From Promethearchaeota archaeon (GTDB lineage Archaea > Asgardarchaeota > Lokiarchaeia > Sigyniarchaeales > SOKP01), in assembly GCA_030599585.1 (NCBI GenBank), contig JAUVNS010000015.1, positions 32,001-96,000 on the forward strand: a DNA stretch of 64,000 bases, read 5' to 3'. The position numbers and the translations under genes were made by a program. Below, piece by piece: positions 1-60,223 of the stretch. The first letter of the stretch is position 1; every line of letters begins with the position of its first letter. A model generated the notes under the pieces. The model saw only the letters and a list, made by a program, of their open reading frames with translations, had not been told where the DNA came from and did no database searches.

Positions 1-124
1 TAGAAGAGTTAAAAACTGAGCTATATGCTTAACTTTTTTAAAAATAATACAACGAATAAATAAATACTCTTATTTTTAGTTCATTTTAATAACATTAATT
101 AGGTTACCTTAATGACGAGTTATT

Positions 125-955: not shown

Positions 956-1004
956 TTAGTTTTATAAAACTTTTTATGCAAGATTTTCTTGTTATCTGTT
1001 AGAA

Positions 1005-2216
1005 ATGCCAAAATTATCCAAATTTGGAGAAGATTTTTTACTACTGGCACTCAGAATTGACAAACACATTAAAGGTTATGTCGATTTTTATTTTGGTCCA
1101 GAAAAACTCCGGCAAATTGTAGATCATGAGTCTCTAACAGCTCCAAACACATTGTTAAATGACTCTAACAATTTAATAAAACAACTGGGAGCTCAAGGTT
1201 ACAACAAAGAACGCGAATGGTATATCGAAAAGTTATTGGTCGCTATGAAAACCTCAATAGAAATTTTATTAGGTTCTGAAATTTCGATTAAAGACCAATT
1301 TACAAGACTTTATGATGTAGACCTACAACCCGCTAAAGAAGCTGATTTAGATAATTTAAAGGAAGAGTTTGAGAATGCGTACAAAGGATCTGGAAGTTTA
1401 GAAGAACGAATGAGTAAGTTAAGAGTACAGCGTAAGGTTCCTAAATCTGATGTTTTCGTTTTATTCAAAAAAGCGCTTAAAATTGTGAAAAGTCGAACTA
1501 AAGAATTGTTTGGTAATCTTTTACCCAAAAATGAATATATTATTATAGACTTAATAGGGGACAAAAACAGCGATAAAACAAAATGGTCTTATTACAACTG
1601 GTACTTGGGAAATTATATTTCCCGAATTGAAATTAATCCAAATTACAATGTGTATTGGAGCTCACTTTTATCCTCTGCCGCTCATGAGGGATATCCTGGG
1701 CATCATACGGAATTTGCTGTTAAAGAACAATGTTTATATCGAAAATTATATCAATTCGAACATTCCTTATTAATACTTCACTCACCCAAATTAATAATTT
1801 CTGAAGGAATTGGAAATTTAGCAATTTCTGTAATGTTTTCAGATATGGATGCTGCAGAAATTAGTTTAAGAGAATTTTGTCCAAATACATCCAAAACGGA
1901 TTCTTTTGATGTAGTGGCTTCACAAAACAGTGTAAGAAGAAAATTGTCTCTTTTTTGGTATAATCTTGCATACCGTGCGCTAATTGACGAATATAGTACC
2001 GAAGAACTAATCTGCTATGGAAAAAATTTTGAAGTTTTCAGTGAAGATACGATTCAAAATAACCTAAAAAGAATGATAGATCCTGTGTATTCAAAAAACG
2101 CTTTTTTATATGACCTTGGGACCAATCTCATTAGAAACAAGTATGGAATTGTTCCATCAGCTAAAAATTACCAAAATTTGCTTAAAACTGCGATATTACC
2201 CTCAAATTTAAAATAA
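1005..2216 (+). CDS. DUF885-like putative zinc metallopeptidase (copy 1)
   Basis: HEGYPGHH motif plus downstream ISEGIG; closely related to 15361..16575 over its full length. Confidence 0.7.
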   Translation: MPKLSKFGEDFLLLALRIDKHIKGYVDFYFGPEKLRQIVDHESLTAPNTLLNDSNNLIKQLGAQGYNKEREWYIEKLLVAMKTSIEILLGSEISIKDQFTRLYDVDLQPAKEADLDNLKEEFENAYKGSGSLEERMSKLRVQRKVPKSDVFVLFKKALKIVKSRTKELFGNLLPKNEYIIIDLIGDKNSDKTKWSYYNWYLGNYISRIEINPNYNVYWSSLLSSAAHEGYPGHHTEFAVKEQCLYRKLYQFEHSLLILHSPKLIISEGIGNLAISVMFSDMDAAEISLREFCPNTSKTDSFDVVASQNSVRRKLSLFWYNLAYRALIDEYSTEELICYGKNFEVFSEDTIQNNLKRMIDPVYSKNAFLYDLGTNLIRNKYGIVPSAKNYQNLLKTAILPSNLK

Positions 2217-2467
2217 AAAATTAGATTTTTCCTAGCACATAATCTGGTGTTGGAGAAGTTAAAAACAATTCTTTAGATTTGAAAATTAAAAATTCAATTA
2301 ACTTTTTAGATTAGATTTCTTCAGCATAAAAATTTTATTAAAGAATCCCAAAATAACAAATTCGTAGTTTAAATAATCACTTTGGAATTAAATATAAAGT
2401 GAAAAAAAAGAGAAATGATTTCTAATTCAAAGTTAATATTTTTCAATTATCCAAAGGAGTGAGTAAT

Positions 2468-2497
2468 ATGCCTGGTGAGGACGGAATAGCACCTTAA
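2468..2497 (+). CDS. Candidate micro-peptide MPGEDGIAP (9 aa)
   Basis: ATG CCT GGT GAG GAC GGA ATA GCA CCT TAA, preceded by SD-like AAGGAGTGA; one of four MPG-x5-P micro-ORFs. Confidence 0.6.
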   Translation: MPGEDGIAP

Positions 2498-2651
2498 TTT
2501 TGTGCTTTTTATAAAAACACTCGAAGATTGTGTTTTTATAAGAGCATCATATATTTTTTCTTCTTTTTTTAACTCAAAGATTAAATAATTTATATTAGAA
2601 ATAAAATTAAAATTTATCAGAAAAAGAAAATAATACAACTTAGTGATTAAA

Positions 2652-2681
2652 ATGCCTGGTCGAGATAGGTTTCATCCTTAA
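2652..2681 (+). CDS. Candidate micro-peptide MPGRDRFHP (9 aa)
   Basis: ATG CCT GGT CGA GAT AGG TTT CAT CCT TAA, preceded by SD-like AGTGA. Confidence 0.6.
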   Translation: MPGRDRFHP

Positions 2682-2834
2682 TTTGATGTCGCTAATAAGA
2701 GTAGTATTTTTTTAGCTCGAAGTTTAAAGTGTTTATATCTAAAATGTAATAACACTTATCCTAATAAGAAAATATTACAATTAAGAGAATAAAATACAGC
2801 AATATACTCTACATGGATGAACTATAGACGAGTA

Positions 2835-3818
2835 TTATATGATTTCTTTACCTCTTTCTATAAAATTGATTGTCTTTTGATCGTTTATTGTTAAGGTAAA
2901 TGTTTTAATGTCTGGTTCATATGTGTTATAAATTTCATATGCATCTTTTTCTTCTTCTTTTCTGCAAAAGGTATACACTGAGCGACCCAATTGATTCATA
3001 CTTACTCCAATAACATCCAATTTGTTTAAGTTGTTAAGTAATTCCTTTGTTTTATCTAAATTTAAAATCTCCATAATTTGTGTATTTTCTACAAATTCAT
3101 ATGATGCCTTAATAAAATTCTTGTAATTGGGTTTTAATAATAATTTGTTCAAAGCTAATTTGCCTGCTTTTTTTATGTTCGAACTTAATTTTTCATCTGT
3201 TAGTATTGATTTGGTTTTTATAGCTCCGAAAGAGCCACAAATGACTAGAAGATCTTCAGGACTTTTTAAACGCTTATAGTTACAAGGATAACCTGGTTCT
3301 TTTAGAATACATAAACCACCCCCTAATTGGCCACAAACGGTCCCCAATCCCGTTTTATTAACAACTTCAGCAATGTGAGCTATCCTACCGCTTTCTAAAT
3401 TAGTCAAATTTAGGTTCAATAGTTTGTTTAATCCAAAGATCGTTCCCAATGCTCCTGACCCACTTGCTCCGTAACCACAACCAACGGGTAAATCAAAAAA
3501 GTGTTCTATTTTTACATTAATCGGGGAATCAATCAGTTTTCTAATATACTCGTATATGAAATAAGATGTTTCTGCTTTATAATCTAATTTTTCTTCATTA
3601 ATGTAAATCGAGCACCGACTTTCCTCTTCTCTTTCGAGCTTTTTACAAGATATTGCCGTTTTCCCTACCCCACTTACGTTAAACCCGGCTCCTCGAGAAC
3701 CAATTTTTTCCGGATTTTTAATTGGAATCCCGTTTTCTTTATCTACAATTTCAAAAAACCCCGATATACGGTGAGGAACTTCAACAATAATTTTATTTGT
3801 AGTACTTACCATACCCAT
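2835..3818 (-). CDS. Pantoate kinase (GHMP kinase family)
   Basis: VPHRISGFF, GSRGAG, LPVGCGYGASG GHMP loop, AHIAEV..TGLG. Confidence 0.88.
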   Translation of the reverse strand: MGMVSTTNKIIVEVPHRISGFFEIVDKENGIPIKNPEKIGSRGAGFNVSGVGKTAISCKKLEREEESRCSIYINEEKLDYKAETSYFIYEYIRKLIDSPINVKIEHFFDLPVGCGYGASGSGALGTIFGLNKLLNLNLTNLESGRIAHIAEVVNKTGLGTVCGQLGGGLCILKEPGYPCNYKRLKSPEDLLVICGSFGAIKTKSILTDEKLSSNIKKAGKLALNKLLLKPNYKNFIKASYEFVENTQIMEILNLDKTKELLNNLNKLDVIGVSMNQLGRSVYTFCRKEEEKDAYEIYNTYEPDIKTFTLTINDQKTINFIERGKEII

Positions 3819-3884
3819 TAAATATTTACTTGACCCAATTTAATTATATATTAATTAAAAAATAAAAGTCAATTATAGTTTATT

Positions 3885-4592
3885 ATGACAAAGAATATTG
3901 TGATAAAGTTTGGGGGCTCTCTTCTATTTTCTGGAGGGGGAACTATAAATTATAAAAAAATTACCGAATTTTGCGATTTAATAAAAAACGACAAAAATTA
4001 CGATTCAATCGTTATCGTATGTGGAGGAGGAAAGATAGCTAGACAATATATTAAAGCAGTAAGAGAATTTACCAAGAATGAAATATTATGTGATATGATA
4101 GGAATTGACATAGCGCGAATAAACTCCCGATTAATAGTAGCTAACATGAAAGAATTTGCTTATCCTCAGGTTCCAGAATCATTTGAAGAATTATCGACAG
4201 CGATCATTACTAGTAAAATTGCAGTAATGGGAGGATTACAACCGGGGCAATCAACGACTTCTGTAGCTATTCAAGTAGCAGAATTTCTAAAAGCAGAGCG
4301 TTTAATAATCCTTACTGATGTTGATGGCATTTACGATAAAGATCCGAAAGTATTTGAAGACGCAAAATTATTGAGAGAACTTGATTACGATTCCCTTCAA
4401 AAAATTATAATAGAAATATCCGGCGATAAGCAAGCTGCGGCCGGAGAATATAGGATTTTTGATGCCGTTTCTTTGCAGATCTTAAAAAGAAGTAATGTAG
4501 TTGTATCGGTAATTTCGGGTTCGAACCTAGATCAGTTTAAAAAATTATGGAATAACGAAAAAGCGAATGTAGGCACAACAATCACGAAATAA
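3885..4592 (+). CDS. pyrH: UMP kinase
   Basis: VIKFGGS, VCGGGKIARQYI, PGQSTT, TDVDGIYDKDP. Confidence 0.93.
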   Translation: MTKNIVIKFGGSLLFSGGGTINYKKITEFCDLIKNDKNYDSIVIVCGGGKIARQYIKAVREFTKNEILCDMIGIDIARINSRLIVANMKEFAYPQVPESFEELSTAIITSKIAVMGGLQPGQSTTSVAIQVAEFLKAERLIILTDVDGIYDKDPKVFEDAKLLRELDYDSLQKIIIEISGDKQAAAGEYRIFDAVSLQILKRSNVVVSVISGSNLDQFKKLWNNEKANVGTTITK

Positions 4593-4658
4593 CTTTTTTT
4601 ATAATAAAATATTAAAATTTAGCACATTTTTCTAACATAGTAATTAAAAACTTAACAC

Positions 4659-4904
4659 GTGAGTAAAAAGAGAATGTCTCAATCTACTTGGAAAGACCAG
4701 ATTAAAAAAAAATGGGGACCTCATAGCCATTGTCCTATTTGTGGAAAAGCAATGCCAACAGATAAGCAATTTTGTAGCCAAAACTGTCGAGATAATTACC
4801 ACGGCACCCAAAAAAAGCAGAAAAAAAAAAGCAGAATTCAAATGATATTCATGTTTGGTATGATGGCAGTTGTTTTCGTATTCATGTTTCTTTTCACAGG
4901 ATAA
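4659..4904 (+). CDS. DUF2116-like Zn-ribbon membrane protein
   Basis: PHSHCPICG..FCSQNC followed by a C-terminal TM helix; typical neighbour of pyrH. Confidence 0.75.
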   Translation: MSKKRMSQSTWKDQIKKKWGPHSHCPICGKAMPTDKQFCSQNCRDNYHGTQKKQKKKSRIQMIFMFGMMAVVFVFMFLFTG

Positions 4905-4981
4905 AAATCAAGCAAAATTGTGCTTCCCTTTTCTATTTGACATAAACTTGGAAGTAATTCGATAATTAGCGCCTTAGGATT

Positions 4982-5100
4982 GCAGGGATAGCCAAGCGGT
5001 CAACGGCGGTGGACACAATCGAGAACACATAATATGTTCTCGAGCCACACTCAAGATCCATTGACATAGGTCTACAGGGGTTCAAATCCCCTTCCCTGCA
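4982..5100 (+). tRNA. tRNA-Leu(CAA) with 36-nt intron (5015..5050) at non-canonical position 32/33
   Basis: Acceptor stem GCAGGGA/TCCCTGC, T-loop GGTTCAAATCC; removing the intron gives anticodon arm GTGGA-CTCAAGA-TCCAT; BHB core GTGG/CCAC with ACA and ACT bulges. Confidence 0.9.
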
Positions 5101-5164
5101 TCTTCAATATTTACAATAAGAAGAGAAACTCGTAAAGTTACTTCTAAAATATTTATTACTTCAT

Positions 5165-5524
5165 TTAGCTCTGAGAAATTTCAATTAGTGCTTCCTTCAG
5201 TAAATCCATTAAAGGTTTGATAACCTCTTGATCTTCTTTTACGTGTCTTAAAAAAAGTAGAAGCAATACGGGCTCTTTAAGGTCGGAAGACATCTTTTCG
5301 ACGATAATTTTGCTTAGAATTTTACTTTGAACTCCAAATATTTGGTGAGAAGCGGAAGACGTTTTCATATTCTCAATTATAGAAGGAATTCCTAACGTTA
5401 CGGTTCCGATACCCATTCCTTCTTCATCGGAAATAAGTACGAGATAGCTTTTTAGTAATTTAAAAATAGAAATATGTAAACAAATATTGTCTATTTTTTT
5501 TTGTTTTTCAATAAGTGGTTTCAT
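5165..5524 (-). CDS. Hypothetical protein, possibly proteasome assembly chaperone PAC3/PAC4-like
   Basis: 119 aa; YLVLISD..GIGTVTLGIP pattern; fold resemblance only. Confidence 0.45.
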   Translation of the reverse strand: MKPLIEKQKKIDNICLHISIFKLLKSYLVLISDEEGMGIGTVTLGIPSIIENMKTSSASHQIFGVQSKILSKIIVEKMSSDLKEPVLLLLFLRHVKEDQEVIKPLMDLLKEALIEISQS

Positions 5525-5559
5525 TTTAATGTATCACTTTACGCCTAAAAAGTAGATAT

Positions 5560-6363
5560 TCAAATCCCAATTTCTTTAATGGCTTCATTTACTTCGTAAT
5601 TTTTATGCACAACTAAATATAATGCTTTTACAACTTTTGTAGGATCTTCTGCTTGAAACACATTTCTTCCGAACGCCACACCTGCTCCACCAACTTCTAT
5701 GGATTGTTTAGTTACTTCTAGAATTTCTCTCAAACTTGCCTTTACACCTCCAGCTATAATAACCGGCGCCATACATCCAGCAACAACCTCTTTAAAAGAA
5801 TCAGGATCTCCAGTCCAATTTGTTTTTACTAAGTCTGCTCCGAGTTCCGCGGCAACTCTTGCGGCGATTTTAACAACCTGAACATCGTACTCGTTGTCAA
5901 TATTTTCTCCACGAGGATACATCATTGCCAAAAGTGGTATCCCAAATTCTCGACACTCGCGCGAAACATTTCCCAAGATTTCTAACATTTCTGGATCAGT
6001 TTTTGTTCCAATGTTAATGTGTAAAGATACGCCATCAGCACCCAATTTTACAGCTTCCAATACATTATTTACTAAGACCTTGTAATTTGATTCTGGGCTT
6101 AATGATGTGGATCCGGATAAGTGTAGAATCAATCCGATATCCGGACCGTATCCCCTATGCCCATAAAGTGGAATCCCAACATGTCCTAAAACCGCATTAG
6201 CACCACCTAAGGCAATTTTGTTAACAATTTCTCCTAGATTTCTTTCTATTCCTTTAATAGGTCCTAATGTTAATCCATGATCCATAGGAACTATAATTGT
6301 TCTTTTTGTTTCTCTATTAAATATTCTTTCTAACCTAATACTTTTGCCTATGTAACCAGAAAT
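5560..6363 (-). CDS. DhnA-type class I aldolase / 2-amino-3,7-dideoxy-D-threo-hept-6-ulosonate synthase
   Basis: PMDHG, AMMYPRG, ELGADLVKT, GRNVFQ; frame extends 26 codons upstream of the called ATG through conserved GKSIRLERIF to an ATT codon behind GGTGA. Confidence 0.9.
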   Translation of the reverse strand: MSGYIGKSIRLERIFNRETKRTIIVPMDHGLTLGPIKGIERNLGEIVNKIALGGANAVLGHVGIPLYGHRGYGPDIGLILHLSGSTSLSPESNYKVLVNNVLEAVKLGADGVSLHINIGTKTDPEMLEILGNVSRECREFGIPLLAMMYPRGENIDNEYDVQVVKIAARVAAELGADLVKTNWTGDPDSFKEVVAGCMAPVIIAGGVKASLREILEVTKQSIEVGGAGVAFGRNVFQAEDPTKVVKALYLVVHKNYEVNEAIKEIGI

Positions 6364-6476
6364 AGTTTATTCACCAATAAATCAATGGTTATATAATTAA
6401 ATTTAACTATAGAATATATATTATAATAGTTAGCATTTTTTTAATTCTTTTAAAACAAACTCGTTGTTAAAATTGA

Positions 6477-6701
6477 ATGTTAGAATCCAAGGACGATCAT
6501 TCGATTAAAGAAAATAATGGAAATATTAATTGCTATAACTGTGGTAGTAAAATTGCAAATGTCAATCTTAAATATTGCATAAATTGTAATACTATATTAA
6601 ATCCAAACGATTTAAAGTGGAGAAACAGTTTTATTTATTTTATCAGCTTGCTATGCTTAATTCCAATCCTAATCGCGCTTTTTTCTAGCTGGTTATCTTA
6701 G
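6477..6701 (+). CDS. Small Zn-ribbon membrane protein
   Basis: CYNCG..CINC plus a C-terminal hydrophobic helix. Confidence 0.6.
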   Translation: MLESKDDHSIKENNGNINCYNCGSKIANVNLKYCINCNTILNPNDLKWRNSFIYFISLLCLIPILIALFSSWLS

Positions 6702-6791
6702 CCTTAATAGATTGTGTTCAAACATAATTTCATAGCTAAAGAATGTAAATCAACAGTTTAATAAATTGGGTAGGAAACGATATAAATATGC

Positions 6792-7298
6792 TTATTCAGG
6801 AGAAAAAACTACATCGGAAATTCGTTGCCTACGTATGTCAAAATCATGATCAAGATGAAGAGTAATACAATGTTGATCCTTCATCTGAGAATTACTATGA
6901 ACATAGCTTATTGGAACGACAGGTAAATCAGATTTATTGATATAATTTTTAGGGATGGGTACTGGAATTATTTCTTTACATCGTTCACAATTTACTAAAA
7001 CAACTTTAATTTTATCAGATTCTAACCTTTTCAATTTTTGTAAAAGATCAGCAGATAACCCTGGAGAATTAACCGTTAGTTTATTCTTCTTTTTTGGCGA
7101 TTCTGGAACTAAGGGGATTCCTAATTCGACATCCTCAACAGTCGAGAAATCTAAATTTGATTTATCCTTTTTTTTTTTAATTTTAATAGAAGATTTCTTC
7201 TCGTCCTTATTTTTTTTGCTGGAAAATTTAGGATTTGACTTGGGAGTTGTGTTTTTGATTACTGTAGGTTTTTTATTGTCTTTATTTGGATTTTCCAA
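6792..7298 (-). CDS. Hypothetical protein, Lys-rich N-terminus and C-terminal putative Zn site
   Basis: CERC ... H ... H; TTG start behind AGTGA. Confidence 0.65.
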   Translation of the reverse strand: MENPNKDNKKPTVIKNTTPKSNPKFSSKKNKDEKKSSIKIKKKKDKSNLDFSTVEDVELGIPLVPESPKKKNKLTVNSPGLSADLLQKLKRLESDKIKVVLVNCERCKEIIPVPIPKNYINKSDLPVVPISYVHSNSQMKDQHCITLHLDHDFDIRRQRISDVVFSPE

Positions 7299-7385
7299 TT
7301 ATATCACTATATTTGAAATTATTCGATTTCTATAATAATATCGTTCGTAAATCATTTATATCTTTGTACTTAAGCTCGTGAGAAC

Positions 7386-7994
7386 CTAAACTCCAAAAAT
7401 CTGCCTTAGTTCAGAATATATTTTTGATAGCTCTGATATGATAGGTGTGTTGTTTTGTTGAAGATAATAATTAATGTATCCCGAAAGGCCCTCGCTATCT
7501 TTAATCCATTCTAAAAACGACTGAACCTCGCCCTTCAGTTGAGGATCTATGTTTGCTGCAACACTTGGCTGACCCTTTCCACCAGCAGTGCCTAATTGGC
7601 TATTTGGATCGATGTAAGTTTGTTTTGAGCTTAATTCTGAAACTGCTCTTGCTGTATCCATAGTAGCTCCCATAGGTTCCCCATCGGGCTCGAGATAAAC
7701 AAGTATTTTATGTTCTTCGTCTTTCGATCCAATAATGTGTCCTTCACCTCGAATTGAAGTGGCAACTAGTCTCTCTGACGTACACTGAAGAACTGAATAT
7801 TTCACACCTGATACCATTACGAATCTTGCATTCAAACTATTCCAACTAGATATTACTTTACCGACATCGGAACTAATATCCCAATTATCTGTTGAGTGAA
7901 GAATAGTGTCTCTTCCTTGAATTACAGCGGCAGCGATAATGCTTGGATCTTTTTGTAATAAATTGTGAACAACAGTAGCTGGATCATTTGGCAT
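7386..7994 (-). CDS. Asgard profilin-like protein with C-terminal extension
   Basis: STDNWDIS, SGVKYSVLQCTSERLVATSIRGEGHII resemble Loki profilin motifs (TENWNIS, GIKY..TEERKIGTNITGKGH). Confidence 0.8.
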   Translation of the reverse strand: MPNDPATVVHNLLQKDPSIIAAAVIQGRDTILHSTDNWDISSDVGKVISSWNSLNARFVMVSGVKYSVLQCTSERLVATSIRGEGHIIGSKDEEHKILVYLEPDGEPMGATMDTARAVSELSSKQTYIDPNSQLGTAGGKGQPSVAANIDPQLKGEVQSFLEWIKDSEGLSGYINYYLQQNNTPIISELSKIYSELRQIFGV

Positions 7995-8098
7995 TTTTTT
8001 TTTCCAATTTTTTAGATTAAAATATCCTATACAGAAATAATAATAATAATAGTATAAATATAATTATAAAAGTTGTATTAAAATTTGTGTTTAATCAT

Positions 8099-8626
8099 CT
8101 ATTCATCTTTTGATGTCTTAATATTGATTCTTCCAAACTTAGGTTTATGTTGAAATTTGTTACTGTTATCGTTCGAATTATTCATAGTTTTGTTTCTGTT
8201 TCGGAAGGTTAGTTTATTATTTAAAAACATTTTATGTTCTAAGTCGTTTTTTCTTTGTGCATTAAAGTGGTCTTTTAAGGAACCTTCATCTCTAAACATT
8301 TTTCCACACACAGCACAACTATAATACGGTTCTCCTAATAGACCTTTAGGTGTTTTAACAACAATTGGGAATTTTTTTCTCCCCTTCAATAAGCCCCCCT
8401 CTTTCCGACACCTATGTCTTATTAATTTTCCATACGGGGGGTATTGAAAAAACATTTTACTTCCGTGAGTACATTCCCAGTATAAAACATCAGCTCCGCA
8501 CTTTTTACAAACAGTTTGAAAAGATCGAAGATAACAGTGTTTTCCGTGACTTTTATAAAAATGTCGCATTATATAATTAGAAATTTCTAACTTATTAAAA
8601 TTTTTTGATGAAACGATATAAGCCAA
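8099..8626 (-). CDS. Zn-finger protein (CxxC..CxHG and C2H2-like)
   Basis: CKKCG..WECTHG; YSCAVCGKMF..LKDH. Confidence 0.65.
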   Translation of the reverse strand: MAYIVSSKNFNKLEISNYIMRHFYKSHGKHCYLRSFQTVCKKCGADVLYWECTHGSKMFFQYPPYGKLIRHRCRKEGGLLKGRKKFPIVVKTPKGLLGEPYYSCAVCGKMFRDEGSLKDHFNAQRKNDLEHKMFLNNKLTFRNRNKTMNNSNDNSNKFQHKPKFGRINIKTSKDE

Positions 8627-8737
8627 TTTTTTAAAAGAGGTTTTTTATTAACTGATAAATCCATAAAACGCAAACATTTAAATGTATGATTTTAATTATA
8701 GAAATTAAGGAATTGAACTTTATGTGGGTATAAGTAA

Positions 8738-9667
8738 TTGGATCTTTCAATGCCTCAAAATAATTTAAATTTATGCCCAGAATGTGGGAATGCAAATCTA
8801 ATTTCTGATAACGCAAGAGGCGAAATAGTCTGTAATGTATGTGGTTTAGTTTTAAGCCAAAACCTTATTGATTCAGGTCCAGAATGGAGAGCCTTTTCTT
8901 CAGAAGAAGCAAATAAAAAAGCTCGAGTAGGAGCACCAACAACATTGACGCTTCATGATAAGGGACTAAGTACTATGATTGGTTGGAAAAATAAGGATGC
9001 TTTTGGTAAGAGCATAAGCCCTAAAATGAAAGCCGAAGTCTATCGATTGAGAAAATGGCATGTTCGAACGAGAACTAACAAATCAATAGATAGAAATTTA
9101 GCATACGCAATGAACGAGTTAGATCGATTTTCATCGCAATTGAGTGTGTCAAGAGAGCTAAAAGAATCTGCAGCTCATATATATAGAAAAATGGCCCATA
9201 AGAACCTTATACGTGGAAGATCAATAGAAGCAATGTTGATAGCATCTATTTATCTATCATGCAGATTAAATAATATCCCTAAAACTCTTGATGATTTTAC
9301 CGAGTTTGCTTTAGTTGATAAAAAAAAAATAGCTCGATGCTATAGGCTAATTTTAACAGAATTGAAGATAAATATTCAGGTTTCTTCACCGATTAATTTC
9401 ATTCCTCGCTTTTGTGCTGAATTAAATCTTTCGGGTAGAACTCAAAACCGAGCTGCAGAATTATTAAAATTAGCTAAAAAATATCATTTAACCGCTGGAA
9501 AAGCACCAACCGGTCTAGCTGGGGCTGCGTTATATGTGGCAGCAATACAAGAAGGAGAAAGGAGGACTCAGAAAGAAATTTCTCTGGCCGCTGGTGTTAC
9601 TGAAGCTACTATTAGGAATAGGTATAAGGAAATAGTAAATCATTTAAGATTTAATTTAAATCCCTAA
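8738..9667 (+). CDS. tfb: Transcription initiation factor IIB
   Basis: CPECG Zn ribbon, GPEWRAF, LHDKGLST, two cyclin repeats, GVTEATIRNRYKE. Confidence 0.97.
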   Translation: MDLSMPQNNLNLCPECGNANLISDNARGEIVCNVCGLVLSQNLIDSGPEWRAFSSEEANKKARVGAPTTLTLHDKGLSTMIGWKNKDAFGKSISPKMKAEVYRLRKWHVRTRTNKSIDRNLAYAMNELDRFSSQLSVSRELKESAAHIYRKMAHKNLIRGRSIEAMLIASIYLSCRLNNIPKTLDDFTEFALVDKKKIARCYRLILTELKINIQVSSPINFIPRFCAELNLSGRTQNRAAELLKLAKKYHLTAGKAPTGLAGAALYVAAIQEGERRTQKEISLAAGVTEATIRNRYKEIVNHLRFNLNP

Positions 9668-9707
9668 AGAGCATTGAAAACGAGATAACAATAAAATTGG
9701 TAGAGAT

Positions 9708-9857
9708 TTAAATAACTTTAATCCGTTTTATTACATCAGGGCGTTTTTTATATAATATACGAAAACCACAGTGAGAACATTTTATCCCTGGAAGTGCGTT
9801 TAATTCTTTTTTAGAGACATCTTTTCCGCAACTTTTTCGAGCACAAACATATTTCAT
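9708..9857 (-). CDS. rpoP: DNA-directed RNA polymerase subunit P (Rpo12); not in the ORF track
   Basis: Manual translation MKYVCARKSCGKDVSKKELNALPGIKCSHCGFRILYKKRPDVIKRIKVI, with the CxxCGxRILYKxRP signature. Confidence 0.93.
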   Translation of the reverse strand: MKYVCARKSCGKDVSKKELNALPGIKCSHCGFRILYKKRPDVIKRIKVI

Positions 9858-9957
9858 AATTTTTAAAATTAATTAAAGTTAAAAAATTTTTCGCACATAA
9901 TTAAAAATGCTGACAAAATTCCTTAAAATATAGAATTTGTTAAGAAAATAAATAGAA

Positions 9958-10773
9958 TTATATGTATAATGACTTTCTCTTATCCTCAGTATCAACAAAC
10001 TGAAATGTATTAAGATCTTTCTCTAATTGGTCTCTTTTGTCTTGTAGATTTTTAGTTATATTCTCTATATTATCAAGTGAATATTTCTTTTTAATTGGTA
10101 AAGTGAACGATTTCTTTAACATCTCCAAAAGTGTTATTGACGCCTTTAAATCAGTTATATCTTCATTTACCATAGCGATGTTATCTGTTTCTGCTAAAAG
10201 AACTATTCCGTCTAAATCAAACCGGGCTTTTGCTAGTGTAGGGATTAACCCATTAGCACCAATAATTACTCCTTTTTGAATCTTATCACAATTGGTTTTA
10301 GCAATAAAATTTTCTAACAACTCTCGGTTTGTCGAACTTGCATATATTTTTGGAATTTTTGTATTGATTTTGCGACTATTTATTGGATATGCTCCTAAGG
10401 CTATTATCAATTTAATTTTACATTGAAATATAATTTCCGCAAGGAAATTTGAAATTCTATAGATACCTTTAGGTGTTAAACTCTGAGCGTCCGCAGTAAT
10501 TAAAAAAATATCTCTTTTTTGTTCAGGATCTTTCCAAAATAAAATCTCTGCTTTAGGAGCGGACAACATACTATCGTCCACTATAGCTCCTGCTGGATAA
10601 TCATCAAATATAAAATCCATTAAGTTTTTAGCGTCTAATTGTCCTATTAAAGAATCAATCGCAAATTTTCCTACATCGGCTATTCCTGGCATACCTAAAA
10701 TACATATTGGATCGTTAAAATCCTCCTCGTTAAAATCAAAATGTTTAATAATTCTTATCCCAGACTCTGTCAT
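9958..10773 (-). CDS. PAC2-family proteasome assembly chaperone
   Basis: GMPGIADVG, ITADAQ, IIALGAY, IIGANGL, LLAET. Confidence 0.85.
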   Translation of the reverse strand: MTESGIRIIKHFDFNEEDFNDPICILGMPGIADVGKFAIDSLIGQLDAKNLMDFIFDDYPAGAIVDDSMLSAPKAEILFWKDPEQKRDIFLITADAQSLTPKGIYRISNFLAEIIFQCKIKLIIALGAYPINSRKINTKIPKIYASSTNRELLENFIAKTNCDKIQKGVIIGANGLIPTLAKARFDLDGIVLLAETDNIAMVNEDITDLKASITLLEMLKKSFTLPIKKKYSLDNIENITKNLQDKRDQLEKDLNTFQFVDTEDKRKSLYI

Positions 10774-10973
10774 TTTTTTTAGCTTAACTATTATTTTATG
10801 ATATAATAAGAGTCATAATTAAGTCTTTAAAATCAATGTGTTATCCTAATAGACACAAGATTTACCGTAATAGTAATACATTCATAATATCACAAAAATT
10901 TTATTTTCTGAAGTATCATTAGATATATCGGATTTTGTACCGACAATATTTAATTTTTTTTAATCATTTAGAA

Positions 10974-11567
10974 GTGACCGAGCTAAATTATGCATGTCTG
11001 AAATGCGGGGCATGTTGCCACGAAATTGAATACAAAAAAAGAATCCCCTTGTATCCTGAAGAGGCGAATATCTTAATCGAGATAGCAAAAAAACGAGGAA
11101 TTGCTTTAAAGATTATAGAAGACTTAGTTTTTCCTGATATTTTAAATAAAAAAATTTTAATTGTAACATACAAAATATTATTTGACAAAAAAATAAATGG
11201 ATGCCCTTTCTACGATAACAATTATGGTTGTACAGTTCACGATACAAAACCCTTAGCATGTAAAGCATATCCTTTAGCTTTAAAACAAGTAGATGCTTTT
11301 AATTTTCAAATTAGCGTTGATCCCTTATGCCATTATGTAATTAAGCACTATGATCTAATAAAAAATGCTAGTTTCTCGACTATGAAAGAAATTTTTAAAA
11401 ACGAATATCCAAATGCACAAAACCATTTAACAAAAAATAAAAATTTAATGCTGAAAATTAAGCAACTTGAATTTGAAAAAAAAATTAAGATTTCTAGACA
11501 AATAAGTTTAAAGGATTTCAATACATATTTGAAAGAATGGGAAAGGGAAGAATTAACTACGAATTAA
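10974..11567 (+). CDS. YkgJ-family cysteine cluster protein
   Basis: CLKCGACC, CPF..CTVHDTKPLACKAYP; start moved to GTG 10974. Confidence 0.8.
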   Translation: MTELNYACLKCGACCHEIEYKKRIPLYPEEANILIEIAKKRGIALKIIEDLVFPDILNKKILIVTYKILFDKKINGCPFYDNNYGCTVHDTKPLACKAYPLALKQVDAFNFQISVDPLCHYVIKHYDLIKNASFSTMKEIFKNEYPNAQNHLTKNKNLMLKIKQLEFEKKIKISRQISLKDFNTYLKEWEREELTTN

Positions 11568-12217
11568 TGATTGATTCTATTATGAAAAAATTTATATCTT
11601 TACTCTCAGGTGGTTTGGATAGCCCAATCGCAGCATACTTAATGATTAAAAAAGGATTTACTCCTACTTTTCTCTCGTTTTTAACTTCAGACGATTACGA
11701 AGGTTCTATGAAAAATAAAGTTATTAAAATTGTAAGAATCTTATCAAAGTTTACAAACGATGAATTGAAAATATTATTCATTAACCACGACAATAACTTA
11801 GACGCTTTTAAAGAATTTTGTGACAGAAAATTAACATGTGTTTTATGTAAGCGATTAATGTTAAGAATAGCTAAGAAATTAGGAGAATTAAATCAAACAA
11901 ATATCATAGTTACTGGTGACATTTTAGGAGAACAAGCAAGTCAAACTCTCGACAATTTATACGCCTATAACAATATTATCTCTGGTTGTGTAATGTTAAG
12001 GCCATTAATAGGATGCGATAAACAAGAAGTAATAGATTTAAACAAGCAAATAGGGTCCTATAATGCCTCTTCAGAATCCTCAGCAGGATGCACTTTTAAC
12101 CCTCAATACCCTGAAACTCATGCGAAACTTGGCGAAGTCCTCAATTCAGAAAAAAAAGTAAATATTGAGGAGCTGATTATGAAATCGATTAAGAATGCAG
12201 AGATTTTAAAATTTTAA
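11567..12217 (+). CDS. ThiI-like PP-loop tRNA sulfurtransferase (catalytic domain only)
   Basis: LLSGGLDSPIAA, CVLCKR, TGDILGEQASQTL, RPLIG; no THUMP domain. Confidence 0.82.
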   Translation: MIDSIMKKFISLLSGGLDSPIAAYLMIKKGFTPTFLSFLTSDDYEGSMKNKVIKIVRILSKFTNDELKILFINHDNNLDAFKEFCDRKLTCVLCKRLMLRIAKKLGELNQTNIIVTGDILGEQASQTLDNLYAYNNIISGCVMLRPLIGCDKQEVIDLNKQIGSYNASSESSAGCTFNPQYPETHAKLGEVLNSEKKVNIEELIMKSIKNAEILKF

Positions 12218-12598
12218 ATCTAAATCGTCAATAAATTCATTAAATTCATCATCTTTCAGCTCAGATTCTTTAAAATCAGGCAAAAATTCACAGATTACTT
12301 GAGCTAATAAATGTTTACAAAACGATCTTCTTCTTTGAATCACTACGGATTTATAAAAGTCTTGGCAAGAGCAGTACAATTTTGGATATAACAAATATTC
12401 ATCATTTTCTCCCAAAGCTATCCAAACAACTCTCCTCGAAGGGTTAAAGGTATATTTTGTTATACCTCTTTTTATAACCTTTAAAACCTTGTCGACTTTG
12501 TCAGGAAAATTTGTATCAATGAAATTCAACAATTCTTCATCAATAACGCCTTTCTTTTCAGCCATCAAAGATATATCAAATAATAAATCTTTTGACAT
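12206..12598 (-). CDS. SWIM zinc-finger protein
   Basis: YCSCQDF...CKHLLA. Confidence 0.8.
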   Translation of the reverse strand: MSKDLLFDISLMAEKKGVIDEELLNFIDTNFPDKVDKVLKVIKRGITKYTFNPSRRVVWIALGENDEYLLYPKLYCSCQDFYKSVVIQRRRSFCKHLLAQVICEFLPDFKESELKDDEFNEFIDDLDLKF

Positions 12599-12647
12599 TT
12601 GATCATCATATATTATTTATAATTGATAAATAAAAAGGATCTTAAGA

Positions 12648-13952
12648 TTGAACCATATTTTATATTTTCCAACAAGATATTTCCCCGCTATTTCGGGCGC
12701 AGAATTTTATATCCAAAGTATGGCAGAAATATTAAATTTGAAATACAACTATGATATTCAAGTCTATACTTCCACTGCAATTGACTTTAAAGCTTTAAGA
12801 GAATCAAGGGGGAGAATTATAAAACCAGGGGAAAAATATTACGAAAATGTAAACAAGTTAAAAATTACTCGCTTTCCTGTTAAGTATAACATTTCACAAG
12901 ATGAAAAGCTAACACTCGTAAAAAAAGAAGCATCTTACGAGGGTTTAGAACTATCTGACGAGTGTCTGATTGAGTATTTAAGAAATGGACCCTTCTTGGA
13001 AAAACTCCTTAAAAACATGGTGCGCCCCACTGAGATTTCCTTCGATTTAGTTCATACAAGCTTCTTTCCCTATTTTAATACAATCTTAACTCTGATGTTA
13101 GGAAAACTTACAAATAAACCAACTGTTTGTACTCCCTTTTTTCATTTCTCAAATCCCAGATATCTTAACAAAAACTATTTCGAAGCAATGCACAAGTTTG
13201 ATAAGATAATTGCTTGTACTCATCTTGAAAAGAAAGTATTAATTGAAACAATGGGCATTCCAGAAGAAAAAATAAAAGTTATTTCTATGGGAGTAGATTA
13301 CAAGAAATTTATATTACCAAAGAAGCTAACTCCTAAGAGATTTAATTTTAAACAGAAGTATTTTAAACCAAATGAAAAGAATCACAGAATGGTATTATTC
13401 TGTGGATATAAAAATTATGAGAAAGGAGCAATTTCAATTTTAAAAGCAATTCCTTACATCTTAAAAAAATTTAGAAAAGTGTATTTTGTCTTTATTGGGC
13501 CATCTACTATTGCGTTTAATAGAGAGCTCTCTAAAATTCAGAAAGCTATCCATCCTCGAGTTATTAACTTAACTCCGGATAATTTAACGGGATATTACGA
13601 TGTAAAGAAAATCGCAGCTTTCAACGAAACTGATGTTTTTTTGATGCCAAGCCGAAGTGATGCGTATGGTATTGCTTTTCTAGAAGCTTGGGCTTCTGGT
13701 AAACCCGTTATAGGTGCAAATATTGGGGCGACGCCAGAAGTTATAAGAGATAAAGTTGATGGGTTACTTGTTGAGTTTGACGATTATATTGACATCGCCG
13801 ACAAAGTTGTATTGTTATTAAAAAAGAAGCGATTAAGCAAAAATTTAGGATTAGAAGGTAGAAATAAAGTTCAAGAAAGTCTTTCTTGGGACATAATAGC
13901 TAAGAAAACGCACGAAACATATCAAGAATTAATTTTAAAAGAAGGTGAATAA
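12648..13952 (+). CDS. Glycosyltransferase family 4
   Basis: FPAISGAE; MPSRSDAYGIAFLEAWASGKPVI. Confidence 0.9.
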   Translation: MNHILYFPTRYFPAISGAEFYIQSMAEILNLKYNYDIQVYTSTAIDFKALRESRGRIIKPGEKYYENVNKLKITRFPVKYNISQDEKLTLVKKEASYEGLELSDECLIEYLRNGPFLEKLLKNMVRPTEISFDLVHTSFFPYFNTILTLMLGKLTNKPTVCTPFFHFSNPRYLNKNYFEAMHKFDKIIACTHLEKKVLIETMGIPEEKIKVISMGVDYKKFILPKKLTPKRFNFKQKYFKPNEKNHRMVLFCGYKNYEKGAISILKAIPYILKKFRKVYFVFIGPSTIAFNRELSKIQKAIHPRVINLTPDNLTGYYDVKKIAAFNETDVFLMPSRSDAYGIAFLEAWASGKPVIGANIGATPEVIRDKVDGLLVEFDDYIDIADKVVLLLKKKRLSKNLGLEGRNKVQESLSWDIIAKKTHETYQELILKEGE

Positions 13953-15174
13953 ATTGAAAAAAATATCTGGAAATCCCTATTTAAATAAAAAGGAGGGAGA
14001 ATTATTAATTGACGGCATCCTACTTAATGAAATTTTAAAAACTTATGCAACTCCCTTAATTATTTTTTTAGAAAATAGAGTTAGAAATAATATAAACACC
14101 TTTAATAAAGTCTTTAAATCTGTATTTAACAATTTCCAATGTTTTTATTCTTTCAAGGCTAATTTCCTTCCTGAAATATGCAACATTATTCAATCAGAAG
14201 GCTTAGGTGCTGAATTAATTGGACTACCTGAACTAAAGTTAGCGTTGAAATTACAATTTCCTCCAGATAAGATAATAGTAGGCGGTCCTTATTTGCCACA
14301 AGAGCTTATCGAAAAATGCGTTCAAGAAAAAATCAAAGAAATTGTCGTATATAACATTAATGATTTAATTAAAATCAACGCTATGGCTGAAAGATATCAA
14401 ATGGTTCAAGATATTTGTCTAAGGGTTAATACTCAAAAATATGGAACTAAATTAGGTATTTATTTGAACCAAATAAATGTAAATAAATTAAAAGTAATTA
14501 TTAATGAATGTGAAAACCTTAGAATTACAACCTTATTATCTCATTATTCTACTCAGATGAATAACTTTGATCTTTTTATAAAAAATGCAGAAAACGTTAT
14601 GGATAGTACTAAAATTTTGTTCGATGCTGGAATTAATATCGAAAACATAAATTTGGGAGGAGGATTTCCTGAAGCAGTAATAATGCCAGAAAATCAGTTG
14701 AAAGAGCTAGCTTCAAAAATACATTTCCTTGTAAGTAATTTTGAGATCAGTTTTAAAAACATCTATTTTGAGCCAGGACGTTATCTGGTTGGGGATGCAG
14801 GCTTACTCATTGCTAAAATTATCAAAGTTACTGATGATAGATGGATTTTCTTAAACATAGGTAATCACATCTGTCCTAAATTTTCAAAATCCTCTATGAG
14901 ATTTTATAATGCCACAAGAATTGAGGAACCACATAAATTTAAAACATCAATAGCAGGAATTATTCCTACCGATCAAGATGTGTTAGCTAAAGATTATTTT
15001 TTTACCCACGACCTAAAAGAAGGAGATATGGTGGTTATTACAAATGCAGGAGCCTATAATCTGACCTTTTCTAATCGATTTCCCTATATCCTTCCCAACA
15101 TAATTCTCGTTACAGATACAAATGCTAAAAATATTTTTAATCCCTCAGTAAATCATGATTTTTCTATTAATTAA
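13945..15174 (+). CDS. lysA: Diaminopimelate/ornithine decarboxylase family (group IV PLP enzyme)
   Basis: YSFKAN PLP lysine, INLGGGF, FEPGRYLV, NAGAY; substrate uncertain. Confidence 0.7.
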   Translation: MNKLKKISGNPYLNKKEGELLIDGILLNEILKTYATPLIIFLENRVRNNINTFNKVFKSVFNNFQCFYSFKANFLPEICNIIQSEGLGAELIGLPELKLALKLQFPPDKIIVGGPYLPQELIEKCVQEKIKEIVVYNINDLIKINAMAERYQMVQDICLRVNTQKYGTKLGIYLNQINVNKLKVIINECENLRITTLLSHYSTQMNNFDLFIKNAENVMDSTKILFDAGINIENINLGGGFPEAVIMPENQLKELASKIHFLVSNFEISFKNIYFEPGRYLVGDAGLLIAKIIKVTDDRWIFLNIGNHICPKFSKSSMRFYNATRIEEPHKFKTSIAGIIPTDQDVLAKDYFFTHDLKEGDMVVITNAGAYNLTFSNRFPYILPNIILVTDTNAKNIFNPSVNHDFSIN

Positions 15175-15175
15175 A

Positions 15176-15316
15176 CCTCCGAAAAGAACGTCTATAACTG
15201 TGTTACACGAGCTCGAGTCAGCAAAATTACGCATAACTCTAATCAGAGCAGTGGGTGATGCTACATTAAAATCAAAATCGTTAAATTCAGCAAAAACAAA
15301 TATTAATCAAGAGTAA
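15176..15316 (+). pseudogene. proC: Orphan 3' fragment of proC
   Basis: Translates PPKRTSITVLHELESAKLRITLIRAVGDATLKSKSLNSAKTNINQE*, matching the ProC C-terminus TPGGTTITAIHELESAKIRATLIRAVEAATIKSKSLNSAKANNNR; no start codon. Confidence 0.88.
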
Positions 15317-15360
15317 TTTTCTTTAAGTTATTTTAGAAGTATTTTTGTGATCTGATACAA

Positions 15361-16575
15361 ATGGTAAAATTATCCAAGTTTGGAGAAGATTATTTACAAT
15401 TAGCATTCCGGATTGATAAGCACATTAATGGATATATAGATTTTTATATTGGTCCGGAAAAACTTAGGCATGTTATAAGTAATGAATCCCTAACAGCCCC
15501 AAAAAAATTATTGGATGATTACAAAGATTTGATAAAACAATTAGGATCTCAAGGGTTTAACAAGGAGCGCGAAATATATATAAAAAAAATGCTTATAGCA
15601 ATGAAAACATCTATCGAACTAATTATTGGTACAAAGATTCCTATAAAGGAACAGTTTTTAAAACTTTACGATGTTGCTCTTAAGCCCGTAGATGAGTCAG
15701 AATTTAAGAATTTAAAAGATGAATTTGATAAAGCTTATCCCGGTTTTGGAAGTCTAGAAGAACGAATGAAAAAATATAGAATAAGGCGAAAAGTTCCTGA
15801 GAAAAAAGTATTCGTATTTTTTAAGGAAGCACTTGATCTCGTTAGAAAGCGAACAAAAGAGTTATTTCTAGACATATTGCCAAAAGAAGAAAAAATAATT
15901 TTAGAGTTAGTTAATAACAACGAATCAGACGAAAAAATAAAATGGAATTGTTATAACTGGTATTTAGGCAATTGTACTAGCCGAATCGAGGTAAATCCAA
16001 CTTTTGGTATGTATTGGACGGCTTTTTTAATATATGCCTCTCATGAAGGTTATCCAGGGCATCATACTGAATTTGTCTTAAAGGAGCAAAAGTTATTTCG
16101 GGAACAAAATCAATTCGAACATTCTTTATTAATACTTCATTCACCTAAATTGATAATAACTGAAGGTATTGGGAATATAGCAATTTCCGTACTCTATTCA
16201 AATAAAGAATTAGCAGAAAAAGGCTTAAGTAATTTTTGTTCAGATCCCTCTAAAGATGATCCTCTTGAAGTATTGATAGCACAAAATAATATAAGAGGTA
16301 AAAATTCGCTTTTTTTGTATAATCTAGCTTATCGTGCTCTCATAGATAGATATAATAATGATGAGCTTCTTGATTATGGAACGAGCTTAGAAATTTTTAG
16401 TGAAGAGGAGATCAGAAATCAATTAAAAAGATTATCTAATCCAGTTTATTCTAAGAACGCTTTTATGTATGAACTTGGAAGCAATCTTATTAGGAATAAA
16501 TATGGCGGTGTTCCAAGCATTAAAAATTTTAAAAATTTGCTTATTAATCCAGTTTTGCCTTCTGACTTAATCTAA
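15361..16575 (+). CDS. DUF885-like putative zinc metallopeptidase (copy 2)
   Basis: HEGYPGHH motif; colinear paralogue of 1005..2216. Confidence 0.7.
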   Translation: MVKLSKFGEDYLQLAFRIDKHINGYIDFYIGPEKLRHVISNESLTAPKKLLDDYKDLIKQLGSQGFNKEREIYIKKMLIAMKTSIELIIGTKIPIKEQFLKLYDVALKPVDESEFKNLKDEFDKAYPGFGSLEERMKKYRIRRKVPEKKVFVFFKEALDLVRKRTKELFLDILPKEEKIILELVNNNESDEKIKWNCYNWYLGNCTSRIEVNPTFGMYWTAFLIYASHEGYPGHHTEFVLKEQKLFREQNQFEHSLLILHSPKLIITEGIGNIAISVLYSNKELAEKGLSNFCSDPSKDDPLEVLIAQNNIRGKNSLFLYNLAYRALIDRYNNDELLDYGTSLEIFSEEEIRNQLKRLSNPVYSKNAFMYELGSNLIRNKYGGVPSIKNFKNLLINPVLPSDLI

Positions 16576-16752
16576 TAGATATTTTAGTGTTAATGCAATT
16601 CTTTAATCCCAAAATTTGTCAAAATTAAAATTTTATTGAAGTTTAAATAGGTTTTTGAAACTAATTTAATGAAGGAAGGAAGTAATTTGATTCATTCTTC
16701 ATATTTCAAAGTTTCGATTAAAAACATTTAAGTTCATATAAAGGTGGAAAAA

Positions 16753-16782
16753 ATGCCTGGTAGAGATAATATTCAACCCTAA
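16753..16782 (+). CDS. Candidate micro-peptide MPGRDNIQP (9 aa)
   Basis: ATG CCT GGT AGA GAT AAT ATT CAA CCC TAA, preceded by SD-like AAGGTGG. Confidence 0.6.
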   Translation: MPGRDNIQP

Positions 16783-16954
16783 TTTGGAGCTTTTCATAAA
16801 AATCATTCAATATAATATTTTTATATAAGCCCATATATTTCTTCTTCTTTTTTAATTCGAAATTTATATAACTTTCTTAAATAGTATTATTGAAGGTTCA
16901 TTTATGAATCCACAAATGATAAAAAAACATAGAACTTAACTTGTGTGAAGATAA

Positions 16955-16987
16955 ATGCCTGGTCAACCGGGAACATTTCCTAAATAA
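16955..16987 (+). CDS. Candidate micro-peptide MPGQPGTFPK (10 aa)
   Basis: ATG CCT GGT CAA CCG GGA ACA TTT CCT AAA TAA, preceded by GTGTGA. Confidence 0.55.
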   Translation: MPGQPGTFPK

Positions 16988-17379
16988 AATTTATTTACAA
17001 GTAATATTTTTATCTTTTCTCTTTTTTTTTAACTTTGTCGCCTGTTCGTTGTTTACCCTTAATTTAAATGTTTTGATTTCAAACGCTTCTTTTTCTTTTC
17101 TTTTTTACAGAACGCATAAATAGAGCGTCCTAATTGATTAAAACTCGTTTAAATAACATCTAATTTTGTTAAATCATCTAAGAAATCCTTAGTTTCATCA
17201 AATTTTAAATTTCTCTAATCTGTGTATTTTTTATAAATTTTAATCTCTCAATAAATTATGATTCTTAAATTACGTAAAACCTTACTACATATCTTGTAAG
17301 TAATATGTGAATATCATATTCATTCTAATTTTTTATTTATATTATTTCTATAACGAAAATATAACAACAGTCGTTTTAA

Positions 17380-18492: not shown

Positions 18493-18538
18493 AAAACTTT
18501 TTCTCCTCCTTTTTAAATCTTCTTCTCTAAACATTTAT

Positions 18539-18898: not shown

Positions 18899-18938
18899 AA
18901 CTTCATCGCTCAAATACTTAAATTTGGACGAATTAACT

Positions 18939-19496: not shown

Positions 19497-19546
19497 ATTT
19501 CTAATTTAAATCATATGTTTTTAACAACATATATTTTTTCATTTAT

Positions 19547-60149: not shown

Positions 60150-60223
60150 ATAAGCAATAAAAAGTGAATGTATATAAAAGAAAAATAGCTAAAAAAAAAA
60201 AATTTAATTTAGGAATATATCTC

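What the first reader, a model, noticed from the sequence alone, without database searches (positions are those of the whole stretch)
2468..16987. Four hidden MPG-x5-P micro-peptide genes paired behind two DUF885-like peptidases: candidate undescribed peptide system
Seen: each HEGYPGHH gene is followed by two tiny ORFs about 185-200 nt apart. They are MPGEDGIAP (2468-2497), MPGRDRFHP (2652-2681), MPGRDNIQP (16753-16782) and MPGQPGTFPK (16955-16987). All start MPG, have Pro at position 9, stop within one codon of it, and follow SD-like motifs (AAGGAGTGA, AGTGA, AAGGTGG, GTGTGA). Shared residues use synonymous codons (Arg CGA/AGA, Asp GAC/GAT, Ile ATA/ATT, Pro CCT/CCC) while the flanks have diverged. 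The first pair has no co-directional gene downstream, so they are not simple leader peptides. Known: HExxxH-type motifs in DUF885 proteins suggest a Zn metallopeptidase fold. Inference: a fixed frame with a hypervariable 5-residue core next to a putative peptidase looks like a signalling/recognition peptide or minimal RiPP system. An alternative is a small RNA with fixed ends and a variable 15-nt core.
Basis: partly seen in the sequence, partly recalled or inferred. Interest (0 to 1): 0.9.

Follow-up and report, generated by a model that had tools for sequence, protein, structure and literature searches.

The report
Nine-residue peptide signals in Asgard archaea
A group of sea-floor archaea related to the ancestors of complex cells carries many tiny genes for nine-amino-acid peptides beside a protein-cutting enzyme and, elsewhere in the genome, beside a large gene-control protein, which looks like an undescribed signalling system.

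Summary
The four 9-10-codon ORFs are at the stated coordinates (4 in the window; 0.02 expected). 122 units from relatives share TATA, SD, ORF, hairpin and U-tract. They are protein-coding: core GC by codon position is 0.61/0.44/0.16, 1 of 66 has an in-frame stop (about 20 expected), and dN/dS is 0.07 at the fixed ends and about 1.3 in the core. All 45 close copies of the DUF885-like gluzincin carry a unit downstream; bacterial homologues do not. The scan had already noted this enzyme-peptide pair in other genomes. New here: the enzyme seems dispensable (not found in several peptide-bearing genomes). The more widespread partner is a ~1200-aa protein on another contig (metal-free gluzincin domain plus Lrp/AsnC units), head-to-head with a peptide gene (17 of 17 closest members), usually followed by an MFS gene. 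Within a genome its peptide resembles the enzyme-linked ones (P=4e-5) despite different codons; window unit 1 differs from it at one residue. Best reading (0.5): leaderless peptide ligands for this regulator, cut or tuned by the peptidases, working like streptococcal LCP/RopB with unrelated parts. Expression, binding and export are not shown.

The parts
1005..2216 (+). DUF885-like gluzincin, copy A (403 aa, no signal peptide seen; H227, E228, H233/H234, E267 and Y369 invariant in 45 close copies)
2368..2375 (+). TATA-like box 100 nt before unit 1; across 122 units such boxes peak 100-129 nt upstream
   Evidence: promoter function inferred
2454..2462 (+). SD motif of unit 1, complementary to the 16S 3' end found on the same contig
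2468..2497 (+). micropeptide unit 1 (9 codons); differs at one residue from the regulator-linked peptide on contig C40
2502..2570 (+). hairpin (14-bp inverted repeat) and U-tract after unit 1, terminator-like
   Evidence: family-wide hairpin z mean -2.9
2652..2681 (+). micropeptide unit 2 (9 codons); its hairpin is weak (z +0.9) and it may be decaying
15173..15316 (+). remnant of the proC 3' end, marking cassette B as a copy of cassette A
15361..16575 (+). DUF885-like gluzincin, copy B (404 aa, 62.5% identical to copy A)
16642..16649 (+). TATA-like box 111 nt before unit 3
16753..16782 (+). micropeptide unit 3 (9 codons), followed by hairpin and U-tract
16955..16987 (+). micropeptide unit 4 (10 codons); orthologous to a stand-alone unit between lysA and ftsZ in G011, so probably older than cassette B

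Best explanation
Each unit is a small stand-alone transcript (TATA, ~80-nt leader, SD, 9 codons, hairpin, U-tract) making a leaderless peptide; loss of the first Met would give an octapeptide with Pro at both ends and a five-residue code between (coding and selection shown; Met removal and stability inferred from general MetAP and exopeptidase rules, from memory). The peptide is most likely the ligand of a ~1200-aa cytoplasmic regulator (G000:C40:27313-30930) whose N-terminal gluzincin-like domain has lost its metal ligands and could bind peptide without cutting it, followed by Lrp/AsnC DNA-binding units (head-to-head linkage and fold shown; binding inferred). The MFS gene behind the regulator-linked peptide is a candidate exporter or target (linkage shown, role inferred). 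The DUF885-like enzymes have intact catalytic residues and were recruited later, in two geometries, next to extra peptide genes; most likely they hydrolyse and so reset or tune the signal (inferred). The cassettes in this window are such enzyme-plus-extra-peptide modules that use the same peptide 'dialect' as the genome's regulator.
For: Coding. Fixed ends dN/dS 0.07, core about 1.3 in 33 disjoint close pairs, some with ~91% flank identity and most or all core residues changed. Regulator linkage: divergent unit 200-350 nt upstream in 17 of 17 closest members with complete upstream DNA, in four more from a second genus, and related 8-10-mers beside about a dozen distant members. Regulator in 108 of 135 family genomes, enzyme in 36 of 135. 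Fold: residues 15-207 match M1 aminopeptidase gluzincin domains (Z 7.8-8.2, about 165 aligned, rmsd 4.4-4.6), 208-372 match Lrp/AsnC (Z 7.5-8.2; best Foldseek rows, E 2e-3 to 1e-2); LREAY stands where HExxH would. Same-family MFS beside the regulator in 28 of 70 loci. Within-genome match of regulator-linked and enzyme-linked cores: P=4e-5 (BLOSUM), 3e-4 (identity), 5e-4 without this genome; 46 of 60 shared residues use different codons and flanks are only 0.40-0.68 alike. Enzyme fold DUF885 Z 22, M32 Z 14.8; catalytic residues invariant.
Against: No expression, peptide, binding or cleavage data. The regulator's domain matches are moderate (Z about 8, model pLDDT 75, pTM 0.59), in the range that can be a common arrangement. 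Many distant regulator copies show no clear peptide, including this genome's second copy on C12. The 11 genomes of the permutation test are kin, so the P value is overstated. The peptides are polar, unlike the hydrophobic LCPs, and export is not shown. Enzyme pocket residues did not covary significantly with peptide change. No regulator lies in the window itself.
Confidence: 0.5

Rival explanations
1. Minimal RiPP: the DUF885-like enzyme matures the peptide (trims a tail or closes a head-to-tail ring with a Pro-Pro-Gly turn) into a metabolite.
For: 45 of 45 close enzyme copies and 12 of 13 in a second clade have an adjacent unit; a few precursors have 1-2 residues after the Pro and short N-terminal extensions around the same core; the fold is carboxypeptidase-like.
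Against: 110 of 111 nine-codon units end at the Pro, leaving no follower for ATP-free transpeptidation; intact units occur in near-complete genomes with no enzyme found; no tailoring enzyme is linked; most tails are explained by one-base changes at the stop.
Confidence: 0.12
2. Protease-effector pair: the peptide is an inhibitor or activator of the neighbouring cytoplasmic peptidase (Pro-ended peptides inhibit ACE-type gluzincins; from memory).
For: Tight linkage kept in both co-directional and convergent geometry; ACE, M3 and M32 are fold relatives; one unit has an in-frame stop at a site lacking the enzyme.
Against: Peptides persist intact without the enzyme and sit head-to-head with the regulator family-wide; a basal clade of 14 enzymes has no peptide; pocket covariation not significant.
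Confidence: 0.12
3. Antagonism: the peptide is an exported inhibitor or a jamming signal aimed at relatives, and the enzyme gives immunity by destroying it.
For: Diversifying core, patchy presence and up to 10 enzyme copies per genome, linked MFS.
Against: Producers without the enzyme exist; peptides in one genome converge rather than diverge; no warhead-forming enzyme.
Confidence: 0.12
4. Cis-acting leader or ribosome-stalling peptide (Pro-stop) controlling read-through of the hairpin terminator.
For: Invariant Pro before the stop and a hairpin 3-8 nt after it; at the regulator locus an MFS gene follows in the same direction.
Against: Most units have a convergent gene or another unit downstream, including window units 1-2; a diversifying core and a genome-wide dialect are not expected of an attenuator.
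Confidence: 0.08
5. Small non-coding RNA with fixed ends and a variable 15-nt core.
For: Each unit looks like an independent short transcript with a conserved hairpin.
Against: Third positions vary where first and second do not, all four Pro codons are used, core GC 0.61/0.44/0.16, in-frame stops avoided, length changes in whole codons; no Rfam match.
Confidence: 0.02

Closest known systems
Leaderless communication peptides (LCP/SIP) and RopB-clan receptors of Bacillota (PMC10518010; PMC13361665)
   Same: Ultrasmall SD-led ORF of 8-10 codons with no export leader, divergent from a cytoplasmic transcription regulator, with candidate target genes behind the peptide gene; species-specific codes; occasional C-terminal extensions.
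   Different: Archaeal; receptor candidate has a metal-free gluzincin domain and Lrp/AsnC units instead of HTH plus TPR; peptides are polar and Pro-capped, not hydrophobic; extra peptide copies ride with a dedicated metallopeptidase; nothing shown experimentally.
Rgg/SHP and other RRNPPA systems (PMC13361665)
   Same: Divergent regulator-peptide gene pair; several copies per genome.
   Different: SHPs are longer precursors needing Eep, PptAB and Opp; receptors are TPR proteins; no homology seen here.
DUF885 (PF05960; 3iuk, 3o0y, 3u24) and M32 carboxypeptidases (1k9x)
   Same: Fold and HEGYPGHH plus downstream Glu motif.
   Different: About 400 aa instead of 550, below the Pfam cut-off; 130 bacterial homologue loci show no such peptide; no substrate for DUF885 found in 16 papers listed.
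Microcin C (mccA heptapeptide with MccB, pump and immunity peptidase; from memory, abstract PMC9239234)
   Same: Very short ribosomal peptide gene, MFS gene and a peptidase nearby.
   Different: No adenylating or other modifying enzyme; sequence is hypervariable; peptidase family differs.
Lrp/AsnC regulators
   Same: HTH plus RAM unit at residues 208-372 of the regulator.
   Different: Fused in several copies behind a pseudo-peptidase domain in one 1200-aa chain; usual ligands are free amino acids.

Membership tests
LCP/RopB (RRNPPA) | 8-10-codon leaderless ORF with SD | tested here: met
LCP/RopB (RRNPPA) | peptide gene divergent from its regulator | tested here: met
   17 of 17 closest regulator loci; the window's own units are not next to a regulator
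LCP/RopB (RRNPPA) | receptor with N-terminal HTH and C-terminal TPR domain, homologous to RopB | tested here: not met
   no Pfam or NCBIfam match over all 1205 aa; first 430 aa fold as gluzincin-like plus Lrp/AsnC; the rest was not folded
LCP/RopB (RRNPPA) | hydrophobic SIP-like peptide | tested here: not met
   core rich in Gly, Thr, Gln, Asp, Glu, Asn as well as Ile, Val, Ala
LCP/RopB (RRNPPA) | peptide secreted, re-imported and bound by the receptor | not testable with these tools
   MFS linkage and family-5 peptide-binding proteins in the genome are only compatible with it
DUF885 (PF05960) | Pfam gathering score | tested here: not met
   21.1 and 13 bits against 32.4
DUF885 (PF05960) | DUF885 fold | tested here: met
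   Z 22.1, 359 aligned, rmsd 4.3 to 3iuk; Foldseek E 1e-6 to 3o0y
gluzincin metallopeptidase | two His ligands, catalytic Glu, third ligand Glu | tested here: met
   H227, E228, H233, H234, E267 invariant in 45 copies; which His binds metal was not determined
gluzincin metallopeptidase | peptidase activity | not testable with these tools
   needs an assay
RiPP | leader or follower around a core | tested here: not met
   110 of 111 nine-codon units end at the Pro; extensions in a few
RiPP | dedicated modifying enzyme needed for the product | tested here: inconclusive
   enzyme not found in six peptide-bearing genomes of 83-100% completeness; could be missed in assembly gaps
Lrp/AsnC | HTH plus RAM domain | tested here: inconclusive
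   consistent moderate structural matches, no sequence-profile match

The most novel reading that the evidence does not exclude
One family of Lokiarchaeia has independently evolved peptide cell-to-cell signalling: hypervariable Pro-capped octapeptides are exported, sensed by a receptor built from a dead metallopeptidase fused to Lrp/AsnC units, and destroyed or edited by dedicated DUF885-like peptidases, giving lineage-specific dialects.
Probability: 0.33. Interest if true: 0.95.

Novelty: categorically new. Interest (0 to 1): 0.86.

Why it matters
I found no description of peptide signalling with an intracellular receptor in archaea in the library searched (the library is incomplete). If the reading holds, Asgard archaea use genetically encoded signals read by a receptor class unrelated to the bacterial TPR receptors, so the logic is familiar but every part is new. 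It names a testable ligand for a giant Lrp-type protein and a first candidate substrate class for DUF885-like enzymes, and all parts can be tested in vitro with synthetic 8-mers without culturing the host. Even if the signalling reading fails, a family of over 100 distinct 27-nt genes with a diversifying core, missed by gene callers, is a solid finding.

Tried and rejected
No RNA holder listed for window 900-2900; contigs of four DNA runs cover the locus but gave little on the micro-ORFs. No PDB sequence match for the enzyme or the regulator; no NCBIfam family; ESM feature search gave no usable hit for the regulator. Rfam: only a tRNA in 1-20000. Bacterial homologues: Pro-ending SD ORFs in 6 of 130 loci against 2 of 95 control windows. 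Covariation of guessed pocket residues with peptide change: partial r 0.19, reached by 882 of 3000 matched random sets; sites were guessed from secondary structure, so this is weak. No shared palindromic operator between regulator-linked and enzyme-linked promoters in a simple scan. The frame-0 stop count is circular and was not used; the unconstrained pattern was. wrongly counted a stand-alone copy as enzyme-linked; one search is the corrected test. Co-folding of peptide with either protein was not sent, because the tool asks for chains of 30 residues or more. Regulator not found outside this family in 196 other genomes of the phylum searched.
Full report
Observation. The four micro-ORFs are present as described. 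The strict pattern M-P-G-x5-P-(x)-stop occurs 4 times in the window and 7 times in the genome; a Markov model gives 0.02 per window. The three other copies are two behind a third enzyme paralogue on C11 and one on C40 with no enzyme nearby. The genome belongs to the Promethearchaeota (Lokiarchaeia): a same-genus contig is record SOKP01000131.1 (the match of contig length and position is my inference).

The units are coding. I collected 122 distinct units with 106 distinct peptides from relatives. 111 have 9 codons. All four Pro codons occur at position 9, and third positions vary where first and second are fixed. In the variable core, GC by codon position is 0.61, 0.44 and 0.16, against 0.20 upstream. 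A class-wide search that left the 15 core bases free found 66 SD-led hits in 17 of 161 genomes, none with the reversed control pattern, and only one with an in-frame stop; shuffled cores give a stop in 31%, about 20 of 66. 115 of 122 have an SD 4-10 nt before the start, matching the 16S tail on this contig; TATA-like boxes peak 100-129 nt upstream; a hairpin follows the stop (mean z -2.9) and then a U-tract. In 33 disjoint close pairs, dN/dS is 0.07 at positions 2, 3 and 9 and about 1.3 at positions 4-8, where pN (0.34) exceeds pS at the fixed codons (0.20). Pairs were picked for flank likeness and counts are small, so diversifying selection is likely, not proven.

The enzyme. The 403-aa protein models well (pLDDT 91.7) and matches DUF885 structures (Z 19-22), then M32 carboxypeptidases (Z 12-15), M3, MATCAP and ACE. 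Metal ligands, catalytic Glu and Tyr369 are invariant in 45 close copies. A pattern-free scan anchored on the enzyme's 3' end and a quick tree show three groups: a basal archaeal clade of 14 without peptide; a clade of 13 in which 12 have a convergent 9-11-mer ending in Pro; and a clade of 53 with co-directional units, apart from two paralogues of this genome and one copy at a contig end. All 45 close copies with enough downstream DNA have a unit. Bacterial homologues have none above background. Linkage kept across two geometries argues for function rather than hitch-hiking (inference). In the window, cassette B is a copy of cassette A carrying a proC remnant, inserted beside an older unit that stands alone between lysA and ftsZ in G011.

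The enzyme appears dispensable. Following the C40 unit led to a conserved locus: a ~1200-aa gene, a divergent peptide unit 200-350 nt away, then usually an MFS gene. All 17 closest members with complete upstream DNA have the unit, among them genomes where the enzyme was not found (G013, G014, G017, G044, G048; G049 also has a unit and no enzyme). Peptides here run from 8 to 14 residues; two have the same Pro-Gly-x5-Pro core with a short N-terminal extension and an Arg-Tyr tail. Distant members have other 8-10-mers, for example a set ending in Gly-acidic-Gly; many have no clear candidate. The gene occurs in 108 of 135 family genomes and was not found outside the family; the enzyme occurs in 36 of 135. 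The same MFS family flanks it in 28 of 70 loci.

What the large protein is. It has no profile match. A model of its first 430 residues (pLDDT 75) gives a gluzincin-like domain at 15-207 (Z about 8 to M1 aminopeptidases) with LREAY in place of HExxH, and an Lrp/AsnC unit at 208-372. Further Lrp-like units are read from sequence only. These matches are moderate but agree with one another. A peptidase fold without metal ligands is a plausible peptide-binding sensor (inference).

Link between the two loci. In 11 genomes with both kinds of unit, the regulator-linked core is closer to an enzyme-linked core of the same genome than of other genomes (P=4e-5 by BLOSUM, 3e-4 by identity, 5e-4 without this genome). 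46 of 60 shared residues in the best pairs use different codons and flanks are only 0.40-0.68 alike in AT-rich DNA, so recent copying does not explain it. Here, window unit 1 and the C40 peptide share 8 of 9 residues with four synonymous differences. The genomes are kin, so the P values are overstated, but the pattern points to a shared reader of both kinds of peptide.

Mechanism and verdict. Shown: coding, anatomy, selection, both linkages, both folds, the within-genome match. Inferred: Met removal to a Pro-capped octapeptide, binding to the regulator, hydrolysis by the enzyme, export by the MFS. I put the ligand-regulator-peptidase reading at 0.5 and its cell-to-cell form at about 0.33; an intracellular circuit would fit equally well. 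The closest known system is LCP/RopB: 8-10-residue leaderless peptides divergent from their regulator (PMC10518010, PMC13361665). It works like that system at best; it is not a member, since no TPR receptor or hydrophobic peptide was found. I file it as categorically new for its parts, with a familiar logic. Earlier notes of this scan described the enzyme-peptide pair in other genomes, the large protein alone and the C40 unit alone; none of the notes shown to me joined them.

Noticed in passing
G000 C52:~60050-60160, C23:~74790-74900, C12:~58800-58900 (L061, L315, L062): The three distant enzyme paralogues of this genome (the C23 copy is broken) lack a Pro-ended peptide but have a convergent SD-led 37-aa hydrophobic ORF (start deleted in C12). 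C52 and C12 share FEN1 and downstream neighbours: duplication or part of the 8.9% contamination.
   Followed up: partly
window 15173-15316: 47-codon remnant of the proC 3' end before enzyme copy B.
   Followed up: yes
window 4982-5100: tRNA match spanning 119 nt for a 71-position model, so probably intron-containing.
   Followed up: no
L287 ~1050-1080 (G004:C174): A unit with an in-frame TGA at a site where relatives have the enzyme and this genome does not: a likely pseudogene of the cassette.
   Followed up: partly
G000:C12:4513-8154 (L403): Second, distant copy of the 1200-aa regulator with no clear divergent peptide.
   Followed up: partly
L393, L396, L419, L430, L431 upstream of the regulator: Longer divergent ORFs of 13-20 codons, Gly-rich at the end, that may be precursor forms of the same signal.
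   Followed up: no
L293, L291, L311, L348, L310, L302: Extra stand-alone copies of the regulator-type unit at other loci, sometimes encoding the identical peptide as the regulator-linked copy in the same genome.
   Followed up: partly
L312:2430-3500 and orthologues: The gene after the MFS is an Fe-S plus CdhD-like protein, a candidate target linking the circuit to the Wood-Ljungdahl pathway.
   Followed up: no
G000:C41:37165-38301: A family-5 solute-binding domain inside an open frame of 2407 aa.
   Followed up: no
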